From the NCBI RefSeq assembly GCF_009914755.1, contig NC_060925.1: a stretch of DNA of 64,000 bases. One strand, 5' to 3'. The notes under the pieces are model-generated. The model did not search any database. It had not been told where the DNA came from and was given only the letters and a program-made list of their open reading frames with translations. Shown here piece by piece: positions 32,500-60,209 of this stretch (its first letter is position 1; the number at the start of each line of letters is the position of its first letter). The translations under genes and the position numbers were made by a program. Source of the DNA: the human T2T-CHM13v2.0 reference genome, Homo sapiens.

Positions 32500-33060
32500 G
32501 TGGTCAAAGCTGGTTTCGGCGCCCACGGCACCTCTCCTTAGGGCTCCGTTCTACCCTAACTTCTCTTCGTGCCCTGAAGCCCAGACCTAGAGGAGCAGAG
32601 GAAGGCGCTGACCTCGAAATCTGGATGGTGGCGAATCGGGCGGCAGAGCTCAGGCTCCGGGCATGGGCAGTCGGTCCCGGCCGCGAGCCGCAGCGCCAGC
32701 AGCGCCAGCAGCGCCAGCAGCGCTAGACCCGGGACGCCGCTCGGCGGGCTAGAGACGAGGCGCCAGCGTCGAAGCTGCGGCCGGGACATAGCAGCAGGTC
32801 TAGCGGGCCGGAGTGGGTTCCTACCGCCTGGGTGGGCGGGGCCTGCTGCGCGTCGGGGCAGGAAGGGGCGGGGAGAGTCGGGAAGGGCGGGGAGGGGCGG
32901 GAGGGGCGGGGCTCCGGGGCGGGCGTGGGAGGTCGGGCTTCGAGCGTCCCCGGGCGCTACAGGTGGGTGAAGTTAAGTGGCTGCTGGAGCGTCTCGGGGG
33001 ACAGCCAGTGTCTGCGGCGCCGAGAGGGCCGTTCGTGGACTCAAATGGGTATCACCCCTA
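32500..33060. promoter_or_regulatory. CTBS CpG island / TATA-less promoter with GC boxes
   Basis: High GC and CpG density around exon 1; several GGGCGG boxes at about 32834-32925. Confidence 0.9.
32613..32789 (-). CDS. CTBS: CTBS exon 1: di-N-acetylchitobiase (lysosomal GH18) signal peptide and N-terminus
   Basis: MSRPQLRRWRLVSS...LALLALLALLALRLAAG...PDFE, |gtcagc donor; seven exons splice to 385 aa. Confidence 0.97.
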
Positions 33061-34170
33061 CCGTTTATAGTCCTCCCAATAGTCTGCATCTCGTTTTGTC
33101 GTGGCTGGTCGTGTACTCCTTGTGGAGTCTGAAGGTACAAGGGGATCCCCAAAATGGAGAAGTGGGTGTCTTTGGAAGGGCCTACTGAGTAACATGGTTG
33201 GAGTGGCCAAAAGACTTTGTTTTTCTTTTGCTACTCAAAAGAAAGCTGGAATACCAAAAATTTTTACTTACGGATATCAGGTCTTAGTTAAGATCGTGGT
33301 TTGAATTCAAGCATCTAATTTTGCCTACTCTCCTGTTAAAAATCAAGTTTAACAACCTAAACACAAGGACAAAGAGATAACAGCAACAAAATGTTGGAAG
33401 CTGGAGAGCACAAGTATGAGTATGAGAGGTAAATCGGAAAAGGGGGAGATTAGTCAAAGGCTGCTCAAGGACTCTGATCGCTAGATCCTTTTTCCAGCTT
33501 CATGTCTCTGGGCAGCTGCCCCTCTTTCCCACCACGGGCTCCCACCCCGGCTGAATTCCCTGAAGGGGATAAATTCTCTGCTGAGTGGGTATTCCACCTA
33601 AAACGGAGAATAAGTGGCTTTATGCCTACTGAAAACTGAAACCCCTCGCTATCTGATTAACCTAAGAGGCTGAGCAAAGATACTGACATCGGGTTTTCTG
33701 GACAAATCATACACCCAGATCACCCTACAGTGAAATTCAAAGTTAAAAGCACCAGCTATCTACTTGGAGCTTCCTCTCTTTGTACTTTTTAATTTTTACT
33801 TTTAATCATGGACAGCAACCAAAAAAATCCAATAGTGTAGAAAGAAGGGACCCAAACAACAGACAAAGGAATATGGAGGAAGCAGATGCTGCAGGGAGAA
33901 CACTTTTAAAAATTCTCATAATAGCCCCAGAAAAATAAGAGAAGATGAAGCCACAACAGGGTGCAATAAAAGGGGTAGGGGATTTTTAAAAGTTAATAGA
34001 AATAAGAAAGAAGTGAAAAAACTATTAGTAGAAGATAACACTGAGGAATGTAGAGCAAAAACTCTGAAAGATAAGAAAATTGGAAAACGCAGTACAGAGG
34101 GGATGAAATAAATAATTCTTAAAGGTGCTTGAGAAGCAGCGTAGTACAAATAAGAAGAAATAAGTAATTT

Positions 34171-38880: not shown

Positions 38881-40625
38881 ATTTTTAAACATTTATTTAT
38901 AATTTTTTTTTTAATTTTTCTTTTCTGAGAGAAATGGGAAGAAAACCTTTGGAAGGTTTTAAGCAGGGAAGTAGCTTAGTCTGATTTACATTTTTAAAAG
39001 ATCATTCTGACTGGTGTATGAAAGATGATTACAGAGAGGCTTGTGGAAGAGACCAGATAAGCTATTGGAGTGCAGGTGCAGGGCTAATATTTAGCTGGCA
39101 AATACTGGTACTGTGGCCTGGATTCTTTATGGCCAACATTTGCTGACTGGATGCAGTTGGTTGGCACCATGCTGTGCCATTAGCAGTTGTTAAATATTTT
39201 GATTATTTCTCAGCGTTCCCATGAGATTTCAAGGTGGCTCAAACCAGGCTGGCAGCAGTTGTCATCTGGATATGTTGGCTGATAAAGGATATCTTCTGTA
39301 GGAACAGGTGGGAAGACTCGCTGATGTGGTAGATGTGGGGGTTGGAGGAAAGAATAATCAAAGAAAGCAATGATGTTGTCTGTCTTCTCCACTAGCCTGT
39401 GCACTGCTTGAGAGCAGAGATGATCCCGGTGCAGTTTTATCCCCAGCACCTATCCCTCTACCTGCCACTAAGAGGGTAAAAACATTCCTGCTGAATGAAA
39501 TTGCTACATGGGGACATGAGTGCAGATGTAGAGGTGTCAGTGTGGTCTAAGAGTGAGCACTATAAGATAAGAAAAAACAAGCAAGAATCAAGCCCTTTAT
39601 ATGTAGTCTAAATAGGACCAAGATCTCAGATGACCATCCCAGTAGGAGTCGGGTAGAAAGTTAGTGGAATTTTTATTTTGTTTTGTAGAGATGGAGGTCT
39701 CACTATGTTTCCCAGGCTGGTCTCAAATTCCTCCTGGCCTCAAGCAATCCTCCATCCTCATCCTCCCAAAGCACTAGATGTGAGCCACTGCAGCTGGCCA
39801 ATTAGTGGCATTTGACCAAGGAAAAGTTTGAGGATGAAAAGCACTGGGACCTCAGACAGGAGCTGTGAGAGATTCAGTCCCCTGGGACAGTGGGTTACAG
39901 GGGTCAGGAAGCCCAACTCCTGAGGAACAATTCAGAAAATTAATTTCAGAAATAATGGCTTAAGGAATGGAAAATAGTATCAGGAATGCTAACAAAGTGG
40001 GTCAGAGTGAAAAAAGTGGCAATGCTGACCTGATAATGGAGGAGCCACACTGGCTGATAATGGAGGAGCAACACTGGCTGAATCCTATGCCTAAGTGTTC
40101 ATGACATCAAGACCTTCTTATGCACCTTGCCTAGGAAGGATTTCTTCCACTGCCTAGGACAGAACTGAGCATAACGCATGAGATTTAAGGAAGCCCAGCT
40201 GCTGGGGTAGATAGAGGCTCAGGGAGTGAGGAAAGCCAGGTGGCCTTTTCACCTATCAGCTGTCTCCTCATCCCAGGAGCCTGCAAGAACCGAGACGGTG
40301 ATTTATAACCACTTGCTTAGTATCCCCCAGACTCAACACAGTGCTTGGCACACAATAAGTGCTTAATAAGTTTTTACTTTTTGTAAAATTTAAAGATTTT
40401 TGAAATTCAAAATTTATTGGGTTTGGCACATTTAAGGTCATTCTTTTCCAAATCTCAAAATGGGATGTTAGAAAACCTTAAAATTGATGGGACGACATTA
40501 TTTTCACATTACCAAATATCCAGTTAAATATGTTTTGTGATTTCCCAGTAAAAAACAAAATAAATTAAAGACAAAATAAATTTAAATAAAGTTAGCTCAG
40601 AGGTCCAAACTCATGGATTACAAAT

Positions 40626-40732
40626 TCACGTGGAGCATTGCGTTTTCCTACCGGAATGTGATGTGTGAGCACCGATGTTTCCACCAGATCCTCCGGCTTG
40701 TGGATTACTCCATTCATCAACACCAGTGGATC
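40626..40732 (-). pseudogene. Vitellogenin terminal exon remnant
   Basis: ttcttttcttctag| then ...HKPEDLVE(T)/IGAHTSHSGRKTQCST* versus recalled chicken VTG2 QKSEDMQDTVDAHTTCSCENEECST*; frameshifted; TGA at 40626-40628. Confidence 0.85.
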
Positions 40733-41485
40733 CTAGAAGAAAAGAACATTTTGAAAGTGACTTTGTGTCTTTGGGGATGCTCTTCTTTAAACATCAGTAG
40801 GAATAAACATTCTCTTTATGGCTATAAAGGAAATTAAACACCACAGACCCCAGAAAATAATAACAATTAAAATACTAATTACAACATGAGTTTACATTTA
40901 TTTTAACACCCCCCAAACACCAATAAAAATTTAAAAGATGTAAATTCTCTTCCCAGAACCAATTATCAAAACAAAGATTTCACTTTAGCTCTCTTAGGAG
41001 AAGATAATACTTAAGCTAACTAGAAACAAGAATGAATTAATATATTTCTACTTTTGGTAGATTTGAAAAGTGTAGTTTGAAATACAGTTTCTGAGAGAAA
41101 ACTGGATTTATTTTCCTCATTCTGGAGTCTTCTTTGTGGTTGTTGGTATCACCATTCTTTCATATTCTTAAGCTCAGTGCCTAGAGAGAATTTTGGGTTT
41201 TGTTTTGTTTAACTTTTTCCTCTCCATTACCTGCTATGATGCTAATTCAAATCCTTCTTAGTTGGTAGTAATGGCCATGTAAGGCAGGGATGATTCTCAA
41301 CCCTGTTTTACAGATAATCAAGCTAAGCACACAGGATGACTGCCCAAGAAGCAAGTGACCGCAATGGTGAAGCTGGGCCTCCACCCTGCCGTCTGGCTGA
41401 CTTCAAGGCCTGCACAGCCTCTTAAGCCGCATCCTGCTTGCTGCCTCCAAGCTTTCCTGACTGCAGCCTTTTCTCCAGTCACTTT

Positions 41486-42072
41486 TGATAGAGGAGTTAA
41501 GAAGAAATTACTTAGGCAGATAGTGAGGGTATGGAAGTCCTCGGTAAGGTTTTCCTTTTAATGAAAAGCAGCCCCAAATCATTTTCCTTTCTAACAAACA
41601 GCAGCCTGTAAAATCAAGCTGCAGACATAGATGCCGGCAGTTGTGCCAATCATGTTCAGAATGGTGGCTCCCTTCTCCCTTCTCTGCCAGCCATATGTAC
41701 AGTAAGGAGCAGACAACATGGCTCGGGCCAAGGGTAAAGTTGATTTGCATAATAAGATTAGGGTGGGGCCCACCAGCCTTCCCCTGCACTATGTAAACAT
41801 CACGCCTGACTGAACCAATCTGTGAGCCCTATGTAAATCAGACAATGCCTTCTCAAGCCTGACTATAAAATCCTGTGAGTCCACTGCCAGCCAGTCTTTC
41901 CTCTGGGAAGCCCCTCTCTCTCCCTAGAGAGAGCTGGTTTCCTTTCTCCTTTCTTTTTCTTTTGCATATTAAACTTCCACTCCTAAACTCCTCATGTGTG
42001 TCCCTATCCTAAATTTTCTTGGTGCGAGACAATGAACCATGGGTATTCACCCCACACAACGTAGCCTCTTCA
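41486..42072 (+). mobile_element. ERV1 solo LTR (MER61-like)
   Basis: TG...CA termini, 4-bp TSD CTTT, CCAAT, TATAAAA and ATTAAA signals. Confidence 0.85.
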
Positions 42073-42474
42073 CTTTCTTCTTAAATTTACCCAGACTGAC
42101 CTTTCTAATTCCCTGAGGCCACTTCTCATTTTCCTGCTTCAGAACCAGCAGGAACTCCTGAGTGAAGTCCGAATTCCTCTGCCGGACTTTTACCATTTCT
42201 CTGTGATCTGGCCTAATGTGGACAAGTCTGTATTTCCGCGCTGCAGGCCCTTCTCTGCAGCGGGGTGGTCAGCACTTGGCCTCCTTTGTGTCTCAAGCTG
42301 CGAGGCTCCCTCCCCCTTCAGCCTCTTGGCTTCACTCTAGTTTCAGTCTTCTGTGCTTTATCGTTTCTCATGCTGCACTCAGGCGCCTCCCTACAACTTC
42401 AGAGACTTAACTGACCTCTAAATTCTTTTATATGTGTCAGTCTTAGCTCCCCCAAAAGAGGCTCAGAGCCTATA

Positions 42475-42765
42475 CAGCAGTCGTTCTTAAAATGTAGTCC
42501 CTGACCTGAAGCATCAGTGTCACCTACGTGCCAGTTAGATGCACATCTTGGTCTTCACCCCAGATGTTCTGAATGAAGAATACTCTCAAACCTGAGCATG
42601 CATTAGAATTTCCTGAAGGGCTTGCCAAACCCAGATGACGGGGCCCACCCTTACAGTCTCTGATACAGTAGGACCAGAGTGAGGCCAGAAAAATTTGCAT
42701 TTCTAAAAGGTTTCCAGGCAATGCTGATGCAGCTAATCTAGGGACCACACTCTGAGAACCCCTGC
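42475..42765. mobile_element. Nested MER5-like hAT MITEs
   Basis: cagcagtcgttcttaaa...tttgcatttctaaaaggtttccagg...tctgagaacccctg. Confidence 0.65.
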
Positions 42766-43209
42766 TATAGAACTTAGCAGGAAGCTTGCCTCAGTTTAAT
42801 TAGAACAGAATATTTCAGTGGTTTTCCATCCAAAATCTGATTTCTGTTTCAAAGATTGATTATAGACTGCTGGGATGACACCTCAGGTTTGAATCTAGGT
42901 GGAATTCCCACATATTGAAATGTTTTTAGAGGCTGGGTGGTGTAAGTATTCTAATGCAGGTGTCAGCTGGGGGCAGACAGATTAAAAGTACAATGTAAAA
43001 TGTAGAGCAGTGGACTCTGTTCCAAGTATGTAACATCCTTTTACTGATTTCATTCTCAAAACAACCTATGAGGCAGTTTCCATTATTATCATTTCTGGTT
43101 TACAAACGAACAGGCACCAGAGCTTAAATAAAAGAAGATTTCATATGGGTAGTAAGGTTAGAGCTAGGATTTGAACTGTGGCAATGTAGCTCCAAAGTCC
43201 ATGAATTTG

Positions 43210-43696
<487 letters not shown>

Positions 43697-43722
43697 TAAC
43701 CACAGTAGCTCTTGGTAGATGG

Positions 43723-44470
43723 TGATGCAGGATCTTTGCTCCTTAGCTTAGCTAAAACCTGGGTTCTTGTCCCATGACCAGGAAAAATTAGGTAGTGGAC
43801 ACGTTAAAAGGTGAGAGAGCAGAATTTATTAAAAGAAAGCTGTCAGCGGCCAGGTGCATTGGCCCACGCCTATAATCCCAGTACTTTGGAAAGCTGAGGT
43901 AGGCAGATCACTTGAGGTCAGGAATTCGAAACTAGCCTGACCAACATGTTGAAACCCCGTCTCTACTAAAAATACAAAAATTAGGCATGGTGGCACACAC
44001 CTGTAATCCCAGCTACTCAGGAGGCTGAGGCAGGAGAATCACTTGAACCCAGGAGGCAGAGGTTGCAATGAGCCAAGACTGCGCCACTGCACTCCAGCCT
44101 GAGTGACAGAGTGAGACTCCATCTGAAAAAAAAAAAAAAAAAAAAAAAGGAAAGAAAGCTCTGAACAAAAAAGAGGGCATCCTGCAAACAGGCTTCCACC
44201 TCACAGATTGAATACCAGACCACCAGACCACCAGACCACCACACATGAGCTGAAGAGTCCAGGCTCCTCTCCACTGCACAAGGCACACATTCCTGGGAGC
44301 TCCACCCCACTCTTCCAGTGCACAGGTGGGCCCCCAGTCCATTGTGGGCATGCCCAGACAAGGCCCTGGGCAGATTCCCTCATCTGCACAAAAGCATCTG
44401 ACATAAACACTTGTGAGGTGGGTTGGAGATTCTCCAGGTACCCTTCCTTAGCTGCCTCCTGCATCTATCA
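43723..44470. mobile_element. ERV1-type solo LTR (MER48-like) with internal Alu (about 43848-44148)
   Basis: TG...CA termini, near-TSD atgg/gtgg; family tentative. Confidence 0.65.
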
Positions 44471-45449
44471 GTGGTAATTTATGTTAGATAACATGCCTAT
44501 GCCTACAGTCTGTTTTACTAAGATGGAGAAAACGGTTACCATTAGGGTGACTCTGGTAATTACTGCTTCCCCTGAGCTAACATGCCTTAATGCTTTCTGT
44601 GCATTAATGTCACCACTCTGACACAACCTAACACTCTGTCAGCAGCATGAGCCAGGATGGCTTCCAGAATCTCCATGGGCTGTCCTCACCACACCTTTGA
44701 ATAGCAGCTCTCAAAGTCTCACCTTACATCCATCTTTCCCTCCCTATAAAAAGTGCTTTTCAGCCTTTGCTTGGGTCTTCCAGTATAACAAGCTCACCAT
44801 GTCACTAAGCAGTCAAGCCTATTTTAAGGGAACTAATAATTACACAATAGCTTTTTTACCTTGAGCTGGAAATTGTCTACAGTAACTCGAATTGGTCTTG
44901 ACTCAACCTCTTGGGGACCCTGAGAACAACTATGATCCTCTTTCCACATGGTACTCTTTCTGTATTTGATGATAAACAGCCAATATTGCCTCCTCCTTTG
45001 CTTCCCAAATCTTTCCTTCCCTAGGCTACATAAATCAATTTCCATCTGTTGTCGCTGATATAACATAATTTCCTTTTCACCATCCCATCCTCAACCATCC
45101 CACCCACATCCCTTTTAGATGAGCTCAGAGGATCTGGTGCAAAGATAATCTGTACAGTGCAGGTCAGGCATGATCTGGTCCATGCAGCATACAGCAGAAT
45201 TGCTGCCTCGTATTAGCTGACATGCTTTAATGCTTTCTGGGCATTAATGATTTCTTAGCTTTCTGGGCAGCCATACTCCTGTTGGCTCATTATAAATTCA
45301 TAATCAATGAAGCCCCTTGCTATGTCAAGTTGACAAGAAGTATTGTTCAACCAGATCTCTTTCAATTTACCTTTTACCCATGCAGCAAACTTGTTTAAGA
45401 AATGACTGTACATTCATCCCTTGAAATTATGTCTTATTTCAACGAGTCC

Positions 45450-45526
45450 ATCCTGAATGCAAAGACTCAGAGACGATGTGTCTTTGTGTACTCCAATTAG
45501 GGAAGTTTAGAAAACAAGCTGACAAC
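45450..45526 (-). pseudogene. Vitellogenin penultimate-exon (about exon 34) 5' remnant
   Basis: tgtttacag|GT TGT CAG CTT (xCQL), then F.(K)LEYT and ES; compare recalled ACKLHRSFVKLEKT...DSKCYS. Confidence 0.45.
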
Positions 45527-45631
45527 CTGTAAACATAACACTTCGAAATGGCTTTTGTTGGCATGGATGACCACTGAAAATGTATCCACTTAGCAGCTGC
45601 CAAATAATGGAAACTAACACAGACTGAGACT

Positions 45632-45768
45632 GCCCTGGCGGCCAGGCCTTCTTGCTGGTATGCCAGGATTGGCTGAAGTGAGAAGCCACTGGAATCCTCT
45701 TGACAGGCTATATGTAGCTCATCTTTATGACTTTTTGCCACAGTTCACACACTGGGAGGACAGTCACA
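45632..45768 (-). pseudogene. Vitellogenin vWD exon (about exon 33) remnant
   Basis: CGK...TYSLSRGF...ASHFSQSW/IPA versus recalled CGK...EYRMPNGY...AVSFGHSWIL. Confidence 0.55.
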
Positions 45769-45781
45769 ATATTTCATTTGG

Positions 45782-46505
<724 letters not shown>

Positions 46506-47734
46506 GTATCCATGCACCAGCCACCTTGGAATGTCAGTTTCTTCCACAGGGCTCAAGACTCTGGGGAGTCAGGAACAGGACTGTCCTGTATTCTGGTTGA
46601 TTTTAAAATATTAGAATTTTGCTTTAATTGCCATATAGACTATGATGATAGTGAAGTTGATGGTGATGCCAACTGTGGTGAGGACAGTCATGGTAGTGGC
46701 AATTAAGAACTGCATTTCAGTAATGTGCACAATAGTATAATGATGGCCTAAAAGAACTGCCAGGCTTCAATGTGCTCCACATGTTTCTGCAGCCAGAAAC
46801 ATATATCCTCATAAGGCAGGGGTTAGGTCAATTAATCAGACTTAATTTTACAGAGAGATAACATGTCTGCAAATAACATTTCTGGTTCTTAGTGTATTGA
46901 TCTTTATCATCCTACAATTCCATTGGTATTGGTACTGCACTTTCAGTACCTTTAATTTCGGACAGAATCAAAATACTTGAATTATACTCCAGGTCAAGTC
47001 TTTAACAGCTATATGGCCCTAGGAAAATTACCTTACCTCACTGGTTATTGAAAAGAGGAAAGATAGAAAGAAATTGGTGTTCTAGATTATGCATTCATTT
47101 CTGGATTCAGTTTGCATAAGTCAGTCCTTCTGAGGCTCACAACTTGGGGTAACTGAGGAAGTCAAGGTAATGCAAGGTCAGGTCCAGGGCAGTAGTCATT
47201 GCAATCTTGCCCGCTGTGCCCCTACCTGACATTGCACCTAAGTCTCAAGTGGGATTTTTATAGACTGCAAAATCTAAGACAACTTATACACCCATTTCAC
47301 TACAGGGAGTCCACAGATGTATCTGTTTCCTGTAAACTAGTGGCACACATTCTTCCCTCAACTACTCAGGAGAAATCTTGTCAGCGCATGAAATGTGTTG
47401 TATAAATTCAGTGATAAACTGGTGAAGGACCCCGCTATATTCACCAAAAGAACGTTGCTCAGGAAAGTTAACTTGCTCTCTTAGCATAAAAGTAGGCATT
47501 TGAGATATTGGCAACTCAAGGAACAAGAGTGACATTTCCCTTAATATCTGTTGCTATTAATGATATAATAATGATCACAAACAATATTATTAATAATTAA
47601 AAATGTCATTTTTTCATCCATACCAAAGAGATTTTTTGTTATTTGGTTCTCATTAATTAGATATATAATTTAAATGGGCCCTATTTCCCATCCTCTTAAA
47701 TCTGTGAATAACCACCATATGGTAAGGTACTTAC

Positions 47735-47880
47735 CTTGCAAGGATGAACAACTGGACTTTATCAAATAAACCTGGGCCAAATGATGCAAATCATGCTGTA
47801 TATGGTTCCAATACTGGGTTTTGCTCAGTTCCTCTGCTTTCCAAAAGGAGTCTACCTGCCTTCAGAGTCCTTCATGTGAT
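47735..47880 (-). pseudogene. Vitellogenin late exon (about exon 29) remnant
   Basis: KAGRLLL versus recalled KAVRLPL; ends TTG CAA G|gtaagt (phase-1 donor as expected). Confidence 0.4.
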
Positions 47881-47884
47881 CATT

Positions 47885-53870
<5,986 letters not shown>

Positions 53871-53939
53871 GCAACAAAAAACCTTTCCTAAAGATTTGAT
53901 CTTACATCAAGTAAACCCCAATTATTTTTGAGGAGTGCG

Positions 53940-54412
53940 TCTTCCTTCAAAATAACAGATTATACTCTCAAAGCTTTAAAAATAAAACACCCACACTCAT
54001 ACACACAAACTGTGTCAGAGAAACATTTCCAGACTGTTAGTGGCACTTCTGTAAATTCTGTGAAAAGATTTTGTGTCCTATTATATTCTTGAAAAATATT
54101 TTGGTTTTTTAGGATTCAAAAAATGAAAGGTTTCAAAAGCAAAGACAGTAGCAAAAGCGGCAGCAGGTCAGTGACACCTCGAGCTCTGACACAGCAGCAG
54201 CAGCTGCCACCTCAACAGCAGCCTCCATGGCCACGAACTTGTGTTATGTGAAACATAATTTTCCATATAAAATTATATTTAATATTTAAAAATAATAGAG
54301 ACATGATAGGGAATATTAGAATCCAATTTTTCTACTTGAATTTTTCTTTTTCATTATAGAGCCCCATGTTATGGTTGAGCATGAGAAAAATGGTTTCATA
54401 TTAACAGTCCCT
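53940..54412. mobile_element. Probable hAT DNA transposon fragment
   Basis: Ends ...aacagtccctg, resembling a hAT terminus; family not assigned. Confidence 0.35.
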
Positions 54413-54829
54413 GATTACAGCATTGAACTTTATGATGAAAAACCATGCAAGGTCCTCCTTCCTGTACTACTTTAGTCCAAATAACCATCACCTCTCTTTG
54501 GGCTGGCTGTAATAGCCTTCTATTTGAACCTCTTATTCCCTCAAAGCAGCCAGAAGTATCTTTCAAAATCATAAATCAAATCTTACCACTTTCCAGGTGG
54601 GTGTGGTTGTGCACCCCTGTAGTCTCAGCTACTGAGGAGTCTGAGGCAGGAGACTCATTTGAACCTTGGAGTTCTAGTCCAGCCTGGGCAACATAGAGAG
54701 ACCTCATCTCAAAAAATTGAAACAAATAACAAAAACAGAAACGAAAAATGAAAAAAAAATCTTACCACTTTCCATCACATTCCAAATTAAATACAGAGTC
54801 CTTACCGTGGCCTCTAATGCTCTTAAACT

Positions 54830-55090
54830 CTGGCAGGTCTGGTGTCTGGTGAGGGTCCAGTTTCTGCTCCCAAATGGCACCTTTGTGCCACATCCTCACA
54901 TGGCAGAAGGCTGAAGGGCAAAGAGGGTTCAAACCATGTGTGAAGGCTATTCTTTAAGGGCTTTAATCCCATCCATGAGGGAGCAGTCCTCATGACCGGA
55001 TCACCTCCTAAAGACCCCACCTCTTAATAGGATTGCTTTGGAGATTAAGTTCCAACATGAATCTTGGAGAGGACACTTTCCAATCATAAT
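54830..55090 (-). mobile_element. MaLR LTR fragment
   Basis: catcctcacatggcagaagg...taatcccatccatgagggagcagtcctcatgacc. Confidence 0.7.
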
Positions 55091-55396
55091 AATGAGGAAA
55101 AATGAATACTTTAGTAACAATTTCTTTGGGCCACAGACACAAATCAACCGATTTGACCACGTTTTTCCAATGAAATGACAACCTTAAATTGATCATTTGT
55201 GATGTCAGGTAGTCATTTTGGGATATTTATTTCTTGCAATAACCTTTTGATGGAGTTATTATGACTCCCATTTTACAAACGATACAACTGAAGCCTAAAC
55301 AGGCAAAATGACTTTTTCATAGTCACACAGCTAATAGCGGTAGAGCTGAAAATGAAAATCTCCTGATCCTTGATGTTCTACCATCCCGGGTCCTAC

Positions 55397-55539
55397 TTTA
55401 ATTGGGAAATGGCAACCTCATTCAGCTCAGTGAAGGCTGGGTCACTTGCTAGGTTACAACTTCAGTGATCAGGGCACTTCAGTGGCTCTTCAGAGTTCAT
55501 TTGTATATAAGTGAAGCTCTCCCTTTTGTAGACTTCTCT
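55397..55539 (-). pseudogene. Vitellogenin exon 6 remnant
   Basis: acacag| EKSTKGRASLIYK*...SALITEVVT*QVTQ/FTELNEVAISQL AA|gtagga versus recalled ERLTKGTTAFSYK...GTLITDVSSRQVYQISPFNEPTGVAVMEAR; phase-2 donor conserved. Confidence 0.85.
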
Positions 55540-56323
55540 CTGTGTAAGTACAAACCAACCAGAGGCATGGCTATTGCTTTCCTGTCACTTAGGAATGAAA
55601 TTAATGACTCCTTTATGTCCCATGCCAGGCAATCATCTCAATAGTTTGTGCAAGCTTAGCTTATCTACACAATATCAAACAGGCAATCACAGTTCTCCCA
55701 TGATGCCAGGCAAAACAGAACTTTGTTTCTCCTACATAAAAGAGCACAACATCACAGGTTTAAAACCTCTCACCCTCAGTTTCATCTCACTATTATTGTG
55801 TTAAACATGCTTAATGAAAAATCTGGGCTGGGTTCTTTTCTGTCTTCCCACAATGAAAGTCACAGGAATGGAAACTCGGTTCCAAATGTTTCCATGTGGA
55901 AATGAAGTTGAGAGAAAGCAGTCTCATAAGTATGTGTTAAGTGCCTGTGGAAGCAGAGTCTCATGTTAGACGCAGTGACATTCAGGAACAAATCAGAACA
56001 CATATTCTTGGCCTCCTGAGCTATCATTGTTGTTTGAAGAATGGAGCATTTACCATCTAATAAAAAAGTGAAAGCCTAACACACAAAATCAATTTTAAGA
56101 CAAAGGCTAGGACTTCTCAATTTAGAAGAGGAGATACTTGAATTTTTCTCACACATCATCCCTCACCAGGGCTCCTGAGTAGAACATCTCAGACAACGTA
56201 GGACATAATTTGAAAAGTACTGATCAAATCAGTACAGCACTGATTAAAGAGCAGGTATTGAGTGCCACGCCCATTGGGTGTTGATCCAGGGAAGAAGCTG
56301 GGAGCCCTAGTCTTGGAACCCAC

Positions 56324-56471
56324 CTGAGGATAGCCTAGAATGTCGTTCATGTACATAGTCTTCAACCTTTTTTTGCAAGGGCTGAGGTCCCTGGTCTTGT
56401 TCACAATCATCCTGCTGTACTTTTGGTCTTCTTGGATGGCATATCTGGTGGGCAAACTCCAAAACTGCCAA
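56324..56471 (-). pseudogene. Vitellogenin exon 5 remnant
   Basis: ctcttgtttgcag| GSFGVC/TRYAIQEDQKYSRMIVNKTRDLSPC versus recalled GIGGICHARYVIQEDRKNSRIYVTRTVDLNNC; 3' limit uncertain by about 9 nt. Confidence 0.92.
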
Positions 56472-56555
56472 CTGCAAACAAGAGAGAGAACAATCCCTCT
56501 GTCATCTGGCCATCCTACCCCGCAGCTGAGGGGAGTGTCAGCGAACCTGGAGCAC

Positions 56556-56778
56556 CTCCCGCAGTTCACAGACTAGTTATGTTTTCTTGATGGTCACATG
56601 CAGCATGTGGAGGATACTACAGAATATGTTGATGATGGTTTTCAACATCTTTTCAGAAGCATAAAATTTCCAGCCTTCCGTGGTATGTTTAAATTTCACA
56701 GGGTCAGAGAGGTGGGCTGCCATCATAGCGGTTTGGGGGCCAGAAACATTTATATTTATTAATTTGAGGAGATCAAAT
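56556..56778 (-). pseudogene. Vitellogenin exon 4 remnant
   Basis: cttctag| I*SPQINKYKCFWP...PVKF...YASE...NIFCSILHMLHVTIKKT*LVCELRE|gt versus recalled VRSPQVEEYNGVWP...FKF...YAPE...NIVRGILNMFQMTIKKSQNVYELQE; 84-nt GT-AG intron to exon 5. Confidence 0.93.
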
Positions 56779-57274
56779 CTAGAAGCAAGATTATGGGAAA
56801 TGCTAACATTTTTCAAACAAAAGCGTTCGAAAGAAAATATGAGAAAACATCCTTAGTGTTTGAGAATTGTTTTTTAGTTTACTCTAGCAGTCTGTTTATT
56901 CTTTCATCCTATAAATATGTAGCAAGTATCTGCCTTGTGTTAAGTCCTGTAATGTGCTAAACGTTGGGATCACTTTCAAAGAGCTGGATGAGGTTTCCAT
57001 GATGTCATACCACCTTGAAGATTTTCCAGGCCATTTAAGGCCTTCACTTACTGTAATTTCTCCCCAATTCCCCTCCACTCCATTTCTGAAAAAATACAAG
57101 CCTTTGGGAAATCCACCAGACCTGGGCAGAAGCCTAATTACCCTTTTGGAGACTCCCCAGGGGCTCCAGTGGTCCTCATTGTTTTGATCTCAGCCTCCTG
57201 ACCTGGTTTAGAAGCAAACCTGGAGTTGCATGGGGTAGCATTTTATCATCTGCAGGTAGAGATCTGGCTAGTTG

Positions 57275-57412
57275 CTTGCATATGAGAAAAAGAGAACTGA
57301 GAGAGCCAATTTCAAATTGAGTTGGCAGAAACCAGTGTGCAGGAAGAACTATTCTGGCAGTTTTTAAATGACTTCCAAAGTATTTTGCATTTGAGAGAGC
57401 AACTAAACTGGT
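57275..57412 (-). pseudogene. Vitellogenin exon 3 remnant
   Basis: KYFGSHLK/LPE*FFLHTGFCQLNLKLALS versus recalled NYEGSMLNGL(P/Q)(E/D)...AGVRLSSKLEIS; splice sites degenerate. Confidence 0.65.
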
Positions 57413-58104
57413 AAAAGAAACACTTGGATTGCACGGAATTGACTCAAGTGTAAAATAATATGGCTAATTTTCTCTTTTGATTTGGGATGATTGATGGAGT
57501 TGTGTGGAGGAGTGTGGGCAGAGAGAGCGTCTTTCTCTCCTTTCCCTGCCCTCCCACCAGTTCCACCTTACAGGACCTCTCTGGGCTCCCTTTAGGAATG
57601 CTATATAGACTTAGCTCTCCCTGCAAACTTGGGGGCGAGTCTCCTCCAGTGTTAACTCTGAAAAATTCAGGAGAGCATGAGTGTTTTAAGACCACAGGCT
57701 TTCTGATGTGTGACTCAGATCTGTGTTTAAAAGAGTCCATAACCCTAGAAGATTCTGATCATGATGGAAGAAGAATTTGCACTGTTCTCACTGATTAGAC
57801 ATGGAAAATCATTAGTTTCGCTTCTAGGGAAGAATTTAAACAATTGACAAAGCTATAGATTTTGCAGTCACAGCAGGGAGAAAGTGGAGGAAAAACATTT
57901 AAACAAGCAAAATTATTGATAAGAAATGGGCCCCTGTCTGGTTTCTATAACTTAGTTCTTCTGACTCATAGATGTTATAAAAAGCATCCTGCCTGAGTCA
58001 GAAATTTATTTTGGAGATATTACAGCTGCTCCCTTCCTGTTGAAAGGCATTTGTGAAAAAACTGTATATGACTAAAGACTTATATCAGCATTAGAAATGG
58101 TCGA

Positions 58105-58376
58105 GGCTAGGTGTACCCGTTATACTAGCACTTTGGGAGACCAAGGTGGATCACCTGAGGCCAGGAGTTCAAGACCAGCATGGGCAACATGGCAAAACCT
58201 CGTCTCTACAAACAAACACCCCAAAAAAGAAAAATTAGCCAGGCATAGTAGCACACACCTGTAGTCTCAGCTGCTCAAGAGTGAGGTGAGAAATTCACTT
58301 GAGCCCGGGAGATCAAGGCTGCAGTGAGCCATGATGGTACCACTGGGCAACAGAGTAAGACCCTGTCAAAAAAAAA
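58105..58376 (+). mobile_element. AluJ
   Basis: Diverged Alu. Confidence 0.8.
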
Positions 58377-59566
58377 GGAAGGAAGGAAGGAAGGAAAGGG
58401 AAAAATGGTCCAGAAGAAAGGTGAAAGTACAAAACAGAAGTGTGGGCCCTCTGGCTATTATCAATACTCAGAAAACTGCCTGTTCAAGAATTAGGCCAAT
58501 TCCTGTTATATATCCAAGAGCTTGAACTATAGTCAATGGATGTTCTATATTTGTTTAGAATGATTGGTTGAGTGAGGAATTTCTTAAGAATAAGATTTGT
58601 TTATGCTCCCAGGGCTTGACAAGCCCCATTTTCATCTCAGGTCTCTAAACAAATTTTAAATGTAGACATAAACAATGGACAATTCATTATAGTATGCTCC
58701 ATTATAGTACTTGATACACAGGTAGATAAATCCTGTTCTAAGGAGCAGACAAACAGACGAGGAAAGTTAAAACATACAGCTCTAGGAATTGTACTTTACT
58801 TAAGCCTCAATTTAGACAAATTAGACTATGTTAGTTCAGTTAGGAACAATAATATATTCTCATCACATGTGAATCTTCTGTAAGCTGTTTTGAAATAGAA
58901 GGTTAATAAAAGCTTAGAGGCCTAAGCATTCAATTCTGTTCTGGGATTTTCAACACTTACTATTTTTACTGGAACCCTTCATATGGGGTTTTCTTAAGAC
59001 ATTTTGGTGGTAGTAGAGGTGGTGAAATTAAGGCAAAAAAGAAAAACAAGTTGCTATTTCATTATAGGGGTGGGGACAGAACAAGGCTGAAGGGGCAGGG
59101 ACCAGGGGTGAGGAAATGGGGCAGACAATGACCACTCATTGAGAACATTTTGGTTAAAAAAATGCCAATAATAGCACACAAATGGAGTAGGTGGGTAGTG
59201 TGACTCGGGGAACTCTGTGTGTTGAAGGTTTGACTTAAAACTATGCCCAACAGGAAGAGCATGGGGCTGGGGCTGGGGCAGGTTTGGGGGTTGGGAGGCA
59301 GAGGCGTTGTGGGGAAACACTGAAGGCTGAAGATGTCTGGAAGAGGGTGATTCCCGAGGAAATGAAGTCATGAGATGCAGGGCACGGGTGGAAGCTTTAA
59401 TCCTGTGATCAGGGAAAAGGAGCAGCTTGTGGGGAAAGGCTTGGTCTTAGAGGCTGGGAACCCAGCACAGGCCTGCACTGTTTGCCCAACAGATCACCCA
59501 AAACGCACTTGGACTCAACTCAAGTGTCTTCCCTTCTGAAGCTCTGTGCCCTTAGAATCCAGTTTG

Positions 59567-60209
<643 letters not shown>

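What the first reader, a model, noticed from the sequence alone, without database searches (positions are those of the whole stretch)
40413..40732. Vitellogenin terminal exon with original stop codon and possible poly(A) signal
Seen: a strong acceptor (ttcttttcttctag) is followed by K.EDL.E...AHT......CST-TGA, and an AATAAA lies about 210 nt further on (40413-40418, - strand). Two of the three recalled terminal cysteines are lost (H, G). Inference: this is the 3' end of the VTG gene closest to CTBS; the CST* ending matches my recollection of chicken VTG2.
Basis: partly seen in the sequence, partly recalled or inferred. Interest (0 to 1): 0.8.

Follow-up and report, generated by a model that had tools for sequence, protein, structure and literature searches.

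The report
Likely relic of vitellogenin's last exon
This stretch of human chromosome 1 looks like the decayed final exon of an egg-yolk (vitellogenin) gene that mammals lost; dead yolk-gene fragments at this locus are already in print, so it adds detail rather than a discovery.

Summary
There is a 12-pyrimidine acceptor ending at 40733, a 107-nt block ending in TGA (40628-40626), and an AATAAA at 40418-40413. The quoted peptide spans two reading frames that overlap by one base at 40670, so it needs a 1-nt frameshift.

The block looks like an exon. This acceptor type occurs 9 times per strand in 64 kb. GC is 0.505 against 0.28-0.31 in the flanks, and there are 5 CpGs. The AATAAA is weak evidence.

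The decisive test, alignment to a real vitellogenin last exon, could not be run, because no tool returned a vitellogenin C-terminus.

Indirect support is good. A vitellogenin exon relic lies 15.6 kb upstream on the same strand, at 56324-56470. It matches Pfam Vitellogenin_N at E 1.7e-4, and its profile matches lamprey lipovitellin residues 142-180 at E 1e-5. It is now part of the last exon of LINC01461.

By published synteny the gene is more likely VIT3 than VTG2. Human VIT remnants at this locus were reported in 2008.

Verdict: probably real (about 0.7), an already known kind, low interest.

The parts
40733..40746 (-). Splice acceptor: 12 pyrimidines followed by AG (ttcttttcttctag)
   Evidence: Read. 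The Y12-AG pattern occurs 9 times on the minus strand of the whole window, and this is one of them.
40626..40732 (-). Candidate last coding exon of a vitellogenin pseudogene (107 nt). It is open in two frames that overlap by one base at 40670, and it ends in TGA at 40628-40626.
   Evidence: GC 0.505, 5 CpGs, CpG o/e 0.74. No Pfam family and no PDB relative. Only a self-match in the human genome. Homology to vitellogenin could not be tested with a tool-given sequence.
40413..40625 (-). Putative relic 3' UTR, ending at the first minus-strand AATAAA (40418-40413)
   Evidence: AT-rich (GC 0.282). The AATAAA alone is weak evidence, at about 1 per 840 nt per strand.
56324..56471 (-). Verified vitellogenin N-terminal exon relic on the same strand. 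Acceptor tgtttcag-type site at 56480-56472 and donor cag|gtgggt at 56324|56323. RefSeq annotates 56339-56471 as the last exon of LINC01461.
   Evidence: Pfam Vitellogenin_N positions 144-177, E 1.7e-4, 20.7 bits, below the 24-bit cut-off. It is the only chr1 match in a genome-wide PF01347 search. The profile of six mammalian copies hits lamprey lipovitellin 1lsh_A residues 142-180 at E 1e-5, with the next hit at E 0.42. Orthologous ORFs occur in felids and primates. Splice sites were read.

Best explanation
The segment 40413-40746 (minus strand) is the non-functional relic of the last exon of a vitellogenin gene, most likely VIT3, the member of the VIT2/VIT3 pair on the CTBS side. What survives is the last intron's acceptor, about 35 codons, the original stop codon, and about 210 nt of 3' UTR up to a poly(A) signal.

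It belongs to the same dead gene as the N-terminal exon relic at 56324-56470. That gene ran on the minus strand from beyond 56.5 kb down to about 40.4 kb. In the human copy the reading frame is broken by a 1-nt loss at about 40670. Nothing is translated, and the segment has no yolk function.

Shown here: the sequence features, their rarity, and the vitellogenin identity of the upstream exon.

Inferred: that the 107-nt block descends from the vitellogenin last exon, and that the gene is VIT3.
For: - All features are present as described.
- The build is exon-like. The Y12-AG acceptor is 1 of 9 on this strand in 64 kb. GC steps from 0.306 to 0.505 to 0.282, exactly at the acceptor and the stop. 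There are 5 CpGs, a count reached by 0.3% of 107-nt windows.
- A vitellogenin exon relic lies on the same strand 15.6 kb upstream: Pfam Vitellogenin_N at E 1.7e-4 and lipovitellin 1lsh_A residues 142-180 at E 1e-5.
- The interval lies between CTBS and SSX2IP (hub annotation). This is the published syntenic home of VIT2/VIT3 (Finn 2009; Brawand 2008).
- It is not a young repeat or a duplication. DNA and protein searches of the whole human genome return only the segment itself, apart from three weak protein hits with E of 0.29 or more elsewhere.
- There is no Rfam family at E up to 1 of any note and no local repeat over it.
This holds only if the recollection is right.
It differs at two other positions.
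Against: - No alignment to any real vitellogenin last exon was made. Three word-indexed protein searches and one exhaustive HMMER search returned no true vitellogenin.
- Of 374 minus-strand ORFs scanned against Pfam, only the 56.4-kb exon hit a vitellogenin family. The set was 244 ORFs of 30 aa or more from 40271-63998 and 130 ORFs of 20-29 aa from 40700-58500. In particular, no VWD match lies upstream of the candidate exon.
- Genome-wide searches with PF00094, PF09175 and PF09172 found nothing in the window.
- No C-G-x-C-G motif and no serine-rich (phosvitin-like) tract occurs on the minus strand.
- High CpG retention is unexpected for DNA that has drifted neutrally for about 100 million years.
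- The genome DNA search cannot exclude an ancient repeat. A MIR-like control segment (42960-43200) also returned only itself.
Confidence: 0.7

Rival explanations
1. The block is an exon, or former exon, of a non-coding transcript on the minus strand and has no vitellogenin ancestry. The resemblance to a vitellogenin C-terminus is then a post-hoc match picked from memory.
For: - The exon-like features (acceptor, GC step, AATAAA) say 'exon', not 'vitellogenin'.
- A minus-strand lncRNA unit (LINC01461 in the hub annotation) and felid predicted transcripts run through this region. They splice from about 85 kb into the 56.4-kb exon.
- No tool-based homology was obtained.
Against: - No annotated transcript uses this acceptor (hub table).
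- The felid downstream exons do not map here at E up to 1.
- The block sits at the right strand, side and distance relative to the verified vitellogenin exon.
- If the recalled match is accurate it is very unlikely by chance.
Confidence: 0.17
2. The block is part of an ancient interspersed repeat, or of a conserved non-coding (regulatory) element. Its CpG and GC content would then reflect constraint or germline hypomethylation rather than a coding past.
For: - The CpG observed/expected ratio of 0.74 is unusual for old neutral DNA.
- The genome DNA search is blind to ancient repeats, as the MIR-like control shows.
- The hub list names only the longest masked stretches, so a short masked stretch here cannot be ruled out.
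Against: - Ancient repeats are normally CpG-poor.
- The block is bounded exactly by an acceptor and a stop codon, and it is open in two frames.
- No RefSeq functional element is listed at 40.4-40.8 kb (hub table).
- By eye it does not resemble the MIR-like sequence seen at about 43.0-43.15 kb.
Confidence: 0.08
3. The segment is a real vitellogenin last-exon relic, but of VIT2 (the chicken VTG2 orthologue), rather than VIT3.
For:
- Only one relic gene is detectable in the whole 33-104 kb interval. No second copy of either exon was found, so position alone does not settle which paralogue survived.
Against: - Finn 2009 places Ssx2ip next to chicken vtgII, which puts VIT3 on the CTBS side.
- VIT2 and VIT3 are tandem duplicates from the early amniote ancestor, so similarity to VTG2 is expected for either.
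Confidence: 0.2

Closest known systems
Human and dog VIT1-VIT3 coding remnants (Brawand, Wahli & Kaessmann 2008, PMC2267819; read: abstract, section 7, passages)
   Same: Same kind of object and same locus. These are decayed vitellogenin coding fragments with frameshifts, in the region syntenic to chicken VIT2/VIT3.
   Different: That paper judged the human VIT2/3 matches too short for significance or possibly spurious. Which exons it found is shown only in PDF Figure S1, which I could not read, so I cannot say whether this exon or the 56.4-kb exon is among them.
Last coding exon and 3' UTR of bird and reptile vitellogenin genes (chicken VTG2, VTG3)
   Same: Proposed ancestry: an acceptor, a short cysteine-bearing C-terminal peptide, the stop codon, and a short 3' UTR with AATAAA.
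   Different: The human copy has a 1-nt frameshift and, by recollection only, has lost two cysteine codons. No tool-given bird sequence was available, so the comparison is untested.
Opossum and wallaby VIT1-3 pseudogenes and the platypus VIT1 pseudogene (Brawand 2008; Zhou et al. 2021, PMC8081666, passages)
   Same: Unitary pseudogenes of the same family, left at the ancestral locus.
   Different: Marsupial relics cover many of the 35-36 exons. In human I could detect one exon firmly and one candidate.
Non-coding RNAs that reuse exons of dead protein-coding genes (for example Xist and Lnx3; recalled, no call)
   Same: The 56.4-kb vitellogenin exon keeps its acceptor and is annotated as part of a LINC01461 exon. 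Felid predicted transcripts use both of its splice sites.
   Different: No transcript is known to use the candidate last exon, and no function is known for LINC01461. One listing was found, a ceRNA network paper that I did not read.

Membership tests
Vertebrate vitellogenin (VIT/VTG) gene relic | Lies in the interval syntenic to the VIT2/VIT3 cluster (between CTBS and SSX2IP) | tested here: met
   The hub annotation places CTBS at 7989-32814 and SSX2IP at 102101-155018. Finn 2009 places Ssx2ip next to vtgII in all vertebrates. Brawand 2008 found human remnants in the syntenic regions.
Vertebrate vitellogenin (VIT/VTG) gene relic | Significant sequence similarity of the segment itself to a vitellogenin last exon | not testable with these tools
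   No vitellogenin C-terminus could be retrieved. Pfam and PDB have nothing for this part. Only recollection supports the similarity.
Vertebrate vitellogenin (VIT/VTG) gene relic | Same strand as, and colinear with, other vitellogenin exon relics | tested here: met
   The N-terminal exon relic at 56324-56470 (minus) is 15.6 kb upstream. It matches Vitellogenin_N at E 1.7e-4 and lipovitellin residues 142-180 at E 1e-5.
Vertebrate vitellogenin (VIT/VTG) gene relic | Relics of the intervening domains (Vit_open_b-sht, Vit_b-sht_shell, phosvitin serine tract, VWD) lie between the two exons | tested here: not met
   Of 374 minus-strand ORFs, 0 hit these families. Genome-wide family searches were empty for the window. 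No CGxCG motif or serine-rich tract was found. ORF-based scans miss frameshifted fragments, so this is weak negative evidence.
Terminal coding exon (generic) | Strong acceptor, an open frame into a stop codon, and a poly(A) signal within a few hundred nt | tested here: met
   The acceptor and the GC/CpG step are rare. The AATAAA is not.
Interspersed repeat | Other copies exist elsewhere in the genome | tested here: inconclusive
   Only a self-hit was found. A MIR-like control also gave only a self-hit, so ancient repeats are not excluded.

The most novel reading that the evidence does not exclude
The two surviving vitellogenin exon relics may have been kept because a minus-strand non-coding transcription unit took over the dead gene's splice and polyadenylation signals. 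That unit is LINC01461 in human and the 'uncharacterized LOC' transcripts in felids.

The last-exon relic, with its intact acceptor, its AATAAA and its unusual CpG retention, would then be under constraint as an RNA-processing or regulatory element more than 100 million years after yolk-gene death.
Probability: 0.12. Interest if true: 0.5.

Novelty: already known. Interest (0 to 1): 0.25.

Why it matters
Vitellogenin relics in placental mammals are textbook evidence for the shift from yolk to lactation and placentation.

A last exon that still carries its original stop codon, together with a firmly supported N-terminal exon, would give two fixed landmarks. These could be used to delimit the human VIT3 pseudogene and to compare shared frameshifts across eutherians, and so to date the inactivation. 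The 2008 study could not do this with confidence for VIT2/3 in human.

This is an incremental refinement of a known story.

Tried and rejected
**Searches for a real vitellogenin sequence (all failed)**
- The word-indexed protein search with the exon translation P0001, 'longer' lengths, scored none of its 2 candidates.
- The same search with the N-terminal exon P0003 returned 2 primate ORFs.
- With the 6-sequence profile A1 it returned 9 of 71 candidates, all mammalian ORFs over the same pseudo-exon.
- The exhaustive HMMER search with P0003 gave 7 hits at E up to 0.001. Six are mammalian pseudo-exon ORFs and one (P0006) is an unrelated repeat protein.
- The ESM Atlas on P0001 gave a best score of 0.78 to bacterial hypotheticals, which is uninformative.
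- PDB searches with P0001 and P0002 gave one chance hit at E 1.5 and none.

**Literature**
- PMC362406 is not held.

**Other attempts**
- An alignment query is not accepted for this genome, so I used a single felid protein.
- Earlier findings were not available.
- I looked for paralogous copies of either exon in 33-104 kb, fetching 64-104 kb as L032-L035. None was found.

**Lead rejected**
- A cysteine-proline-alanine-aspartate string at about 42960-42980 resembled, by recollection, the region before the vitellogenin C-terminus. It lies at the tail of a MIR-like repeat and has no donor site, so I rejected it.

Full report
**Observation**

On the minus strand the window reads ttcttttcttctag (40746-40733), followed by a 107-nt block that ends in TGA at 40628-40626. 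The first minus-strand AATAAA after that stop is at 40418-40413, 208 nt further on.

The frame starting at 40732 gives DPLVLMNGVIHKPEDLVETSV... (P0001). The frame starting at 40733 gives ...GAHTSHSGRKTQCST-stop (P0002). Codon 21 of the first frame and codon 22 of the second share base 40670. One missing base would therefore turn the block into 35 codons plus a stop. Both frames are open across the block, and the third frame is closed.

**Is it more than chance?**

- A run of 12 pyrimidines directly before AG occurs 9 times on the minus strand of the 64-kb window, about once per 7.5 kb per strand.
- The block has GC 0.505, against 0.306 in the 268 nt upstream and 0.282 in the 213 nt downstream.
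- It holds 5 CpGs, an observed/expected ratio of 0.74 against 0.17 for 33-64 kb. Only 0.3% of 107-nt windows in 33-64 kb have 5 or more CpGs. These fall in three blocks: 33000-33140, 40589-40735 and 42156-42276.
- The build is therefore exon-like beyond chance.
- The AATAAA is not informative by itself. There are 153 in the window against 100.5 expected, about one per 840 nt per strand.

**Is it vitellogenin?**

The decisive test is alignment to a real vitellogenin last exon, and I could not run it.

- Pfam has no family for either frame, and the PDB has nothing.
- Three searches of the 5.8-billion-protein index and one exhaustive HMMER search of 1.84 billion representatives returned no true vitellogenin.
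- What remains is recollection. That shows why memory is only a lead.
- If 11 of 24 residues plus the aligned stop are truly shared, about 0.003-0.005 such matches would be expected by chance on this strand of 33-64 kb, allowing one frameshift.

**Context: a verified vitellogenin exon upstream**

A genome-wide six-frame search of the human assembly with Pfam Vitellogenin_N gave 17 exon-level matches. They lie on contig 2 near 21.06 Mb and contig 4 near 102.9 Mb (the positions of APOB and MTTP, from recall), on contig 16 near 11.5 Mb, and one on chromosome 1, inside this window at 56351-56452 on the minus strand.

- The exon is 56324-56470 (P0003, 49 codons, no stop). It has an acceptor at 56480-56472 and a cag|gtgggt donor at 56324|56323.
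- Scanned alone, it matches Vitellogenin_N positions 144-177 at E 1.7e-4 and 20.7 bits, below the 24-bit curated cut-off.
- A profile of six mammalian copies (alignment A1) hits lamprey lipovitellin 1lsh_A residues 142-180 at E 1e-5. The next hit has E 0.42.
- Orthologous ORFs come from primates and felids.
- A felid copy finds only this one place in the human genome, at 56% identity and E 1.9e-16.

A vitellogenin relic on the minus strand is therefore established, and the candidate last exon lies 15.6 kb downstream of it. From recall, that is a plausible distance for a gene of about 20 kb.

**Negative results**

- Of 374 minus-strand ORFs scanned against Pfam, only the 56.4-kb exon hit a vitellogenin family. 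The set was 244 ORFs of 30 aa or more from 40271-63998 and 130 ORFs of 20-29 aa from 40700-58500.
- Genome-wide searches with VWD, Vit_b-sht_shell and Vit_open_b-sht gave nothing in the window.
- There is no C-G-x-C-G motif and no serine-rich tract on the minus strand.
- No second copy of either exon exists between 33 and 104 kb.
- ORF-based scans miss frameshifted fragments, so these negatives are weak. They still mean that the candidate exon stands without detectable neighbours.

**Repeat check**

DNA and protein searches of the whole genome with the segment return only itself, apart from three weak protein hits with E of 0.29 or more elsewhere. A MIR-like control segment at 42960-43200 also returned only itself. 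Young repeats and duplications are therefore excluded, but ancient repeats are not. Rfam and a local repeat search add nothing.

**Which gene?**

- Brawand et al. [quoted passage not shown] - Finn et al. 2009 (PMC2632621, passages) place Ssx2ip next to chicken vtgII.
- The CTBS-side relic is therefore more likely VIT3 than VTG2 (inference).
- Biscotti et al. 2018 (PMC6185446, passages) describe human vtg genes simply as absent.
- Zhou et al. 2021 (PMC8081666, passages) show the synteny map with human.
- I found no paper naming this exon. Searches and the LINC01461 search 42 turned up none. Figure S1 of Brawand et al., a PDF I could not open, may show it.

**Mechanism and verdict**

The most likely reading (about 0.7) is a dead last exon with no present yolk function. 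It keeps its acceptor, stop codon and poly(A) signal, and its frame is broken by a 1-nt loss.

Rival readings, each rated on its own (they are not exclusive and do not sum with the 0.7):
- An exon-like piece of a non-coding transcript with no vitellogenin ancestry (0.17).
- An ancient repeat or a constrained non-coding element (0.08).
- Given that it is vitellogenin, the VIT2 orthologue rather than VIT3 (0.2).

The kind of object and the locus are already published, so novelty is low. The one oddity is the CpG retention, which neutral decay does not explain.

Noticed in passing
window 56324-56480 (minus): A vitellogenin N-terminal exon relic is annotated as part of the last exon of the lncRNA LINC01461 (56339-56471). 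The lncRNA exon begins exactly at the ancient acceptor. Felid predicted 'uncharacterized LOC' proteins splice into and out of the orthologous exon, from first exons that map to about 84.9-85.1 kb in window coordinates. Relative to felids, human carries a 12-nt in-frame deletion. The human frame is open for 127 codons.
   Followed up: yes
window 40626-40732: CpG observed/expected is 0.74 (5 CpGs in 107 nt) in a supposedly neutral relic about 100 million years old, against 0.17 regionally. This is unexplained. Constraint or germline hypomethylation is possible.
   Followed up: partly
window 42156-42276: A second small CpG-dense block (5 or more CpGs per 107 nt) lies just beyond the last exon of LOC105378819. 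It shows no vitellogenin-like translation and no Pfam hit.
   Followed up: partly
window 59586-59681 (minus): A 32-aa ORF matches the first 23 positions of Pfam DUF5559 (PF17714) at E 4.8e-5 and 23.8 bits, just under the 25-bit cut-off. This is the strongest non-vitellogenin hit among the 374 ORFs scanned.
   Followed up: no
G000:C16:11513029-11552399 (loci L011, L017, L021, L023, L025): Seven exon-level matches to Vitellogenin_N (3) and Vit_open_b-sht (4) lie on contig 16. Six have no internal stop and one weak match (E 3.2) has a TAG. Open frames run from 77 to 226 aa. This would be a third large-lipid-transfer-type gene in the human genome besides those at the APOB and MTTP positions. I did not identify it.
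   Followed up: no
window 42975-43150 (minus): A MIR-like ancient repeat, recognised by eye. Its translated tail gives a short string that can be mistaken for the region before the vitellogenin C-terminus.
   Followed up: yes
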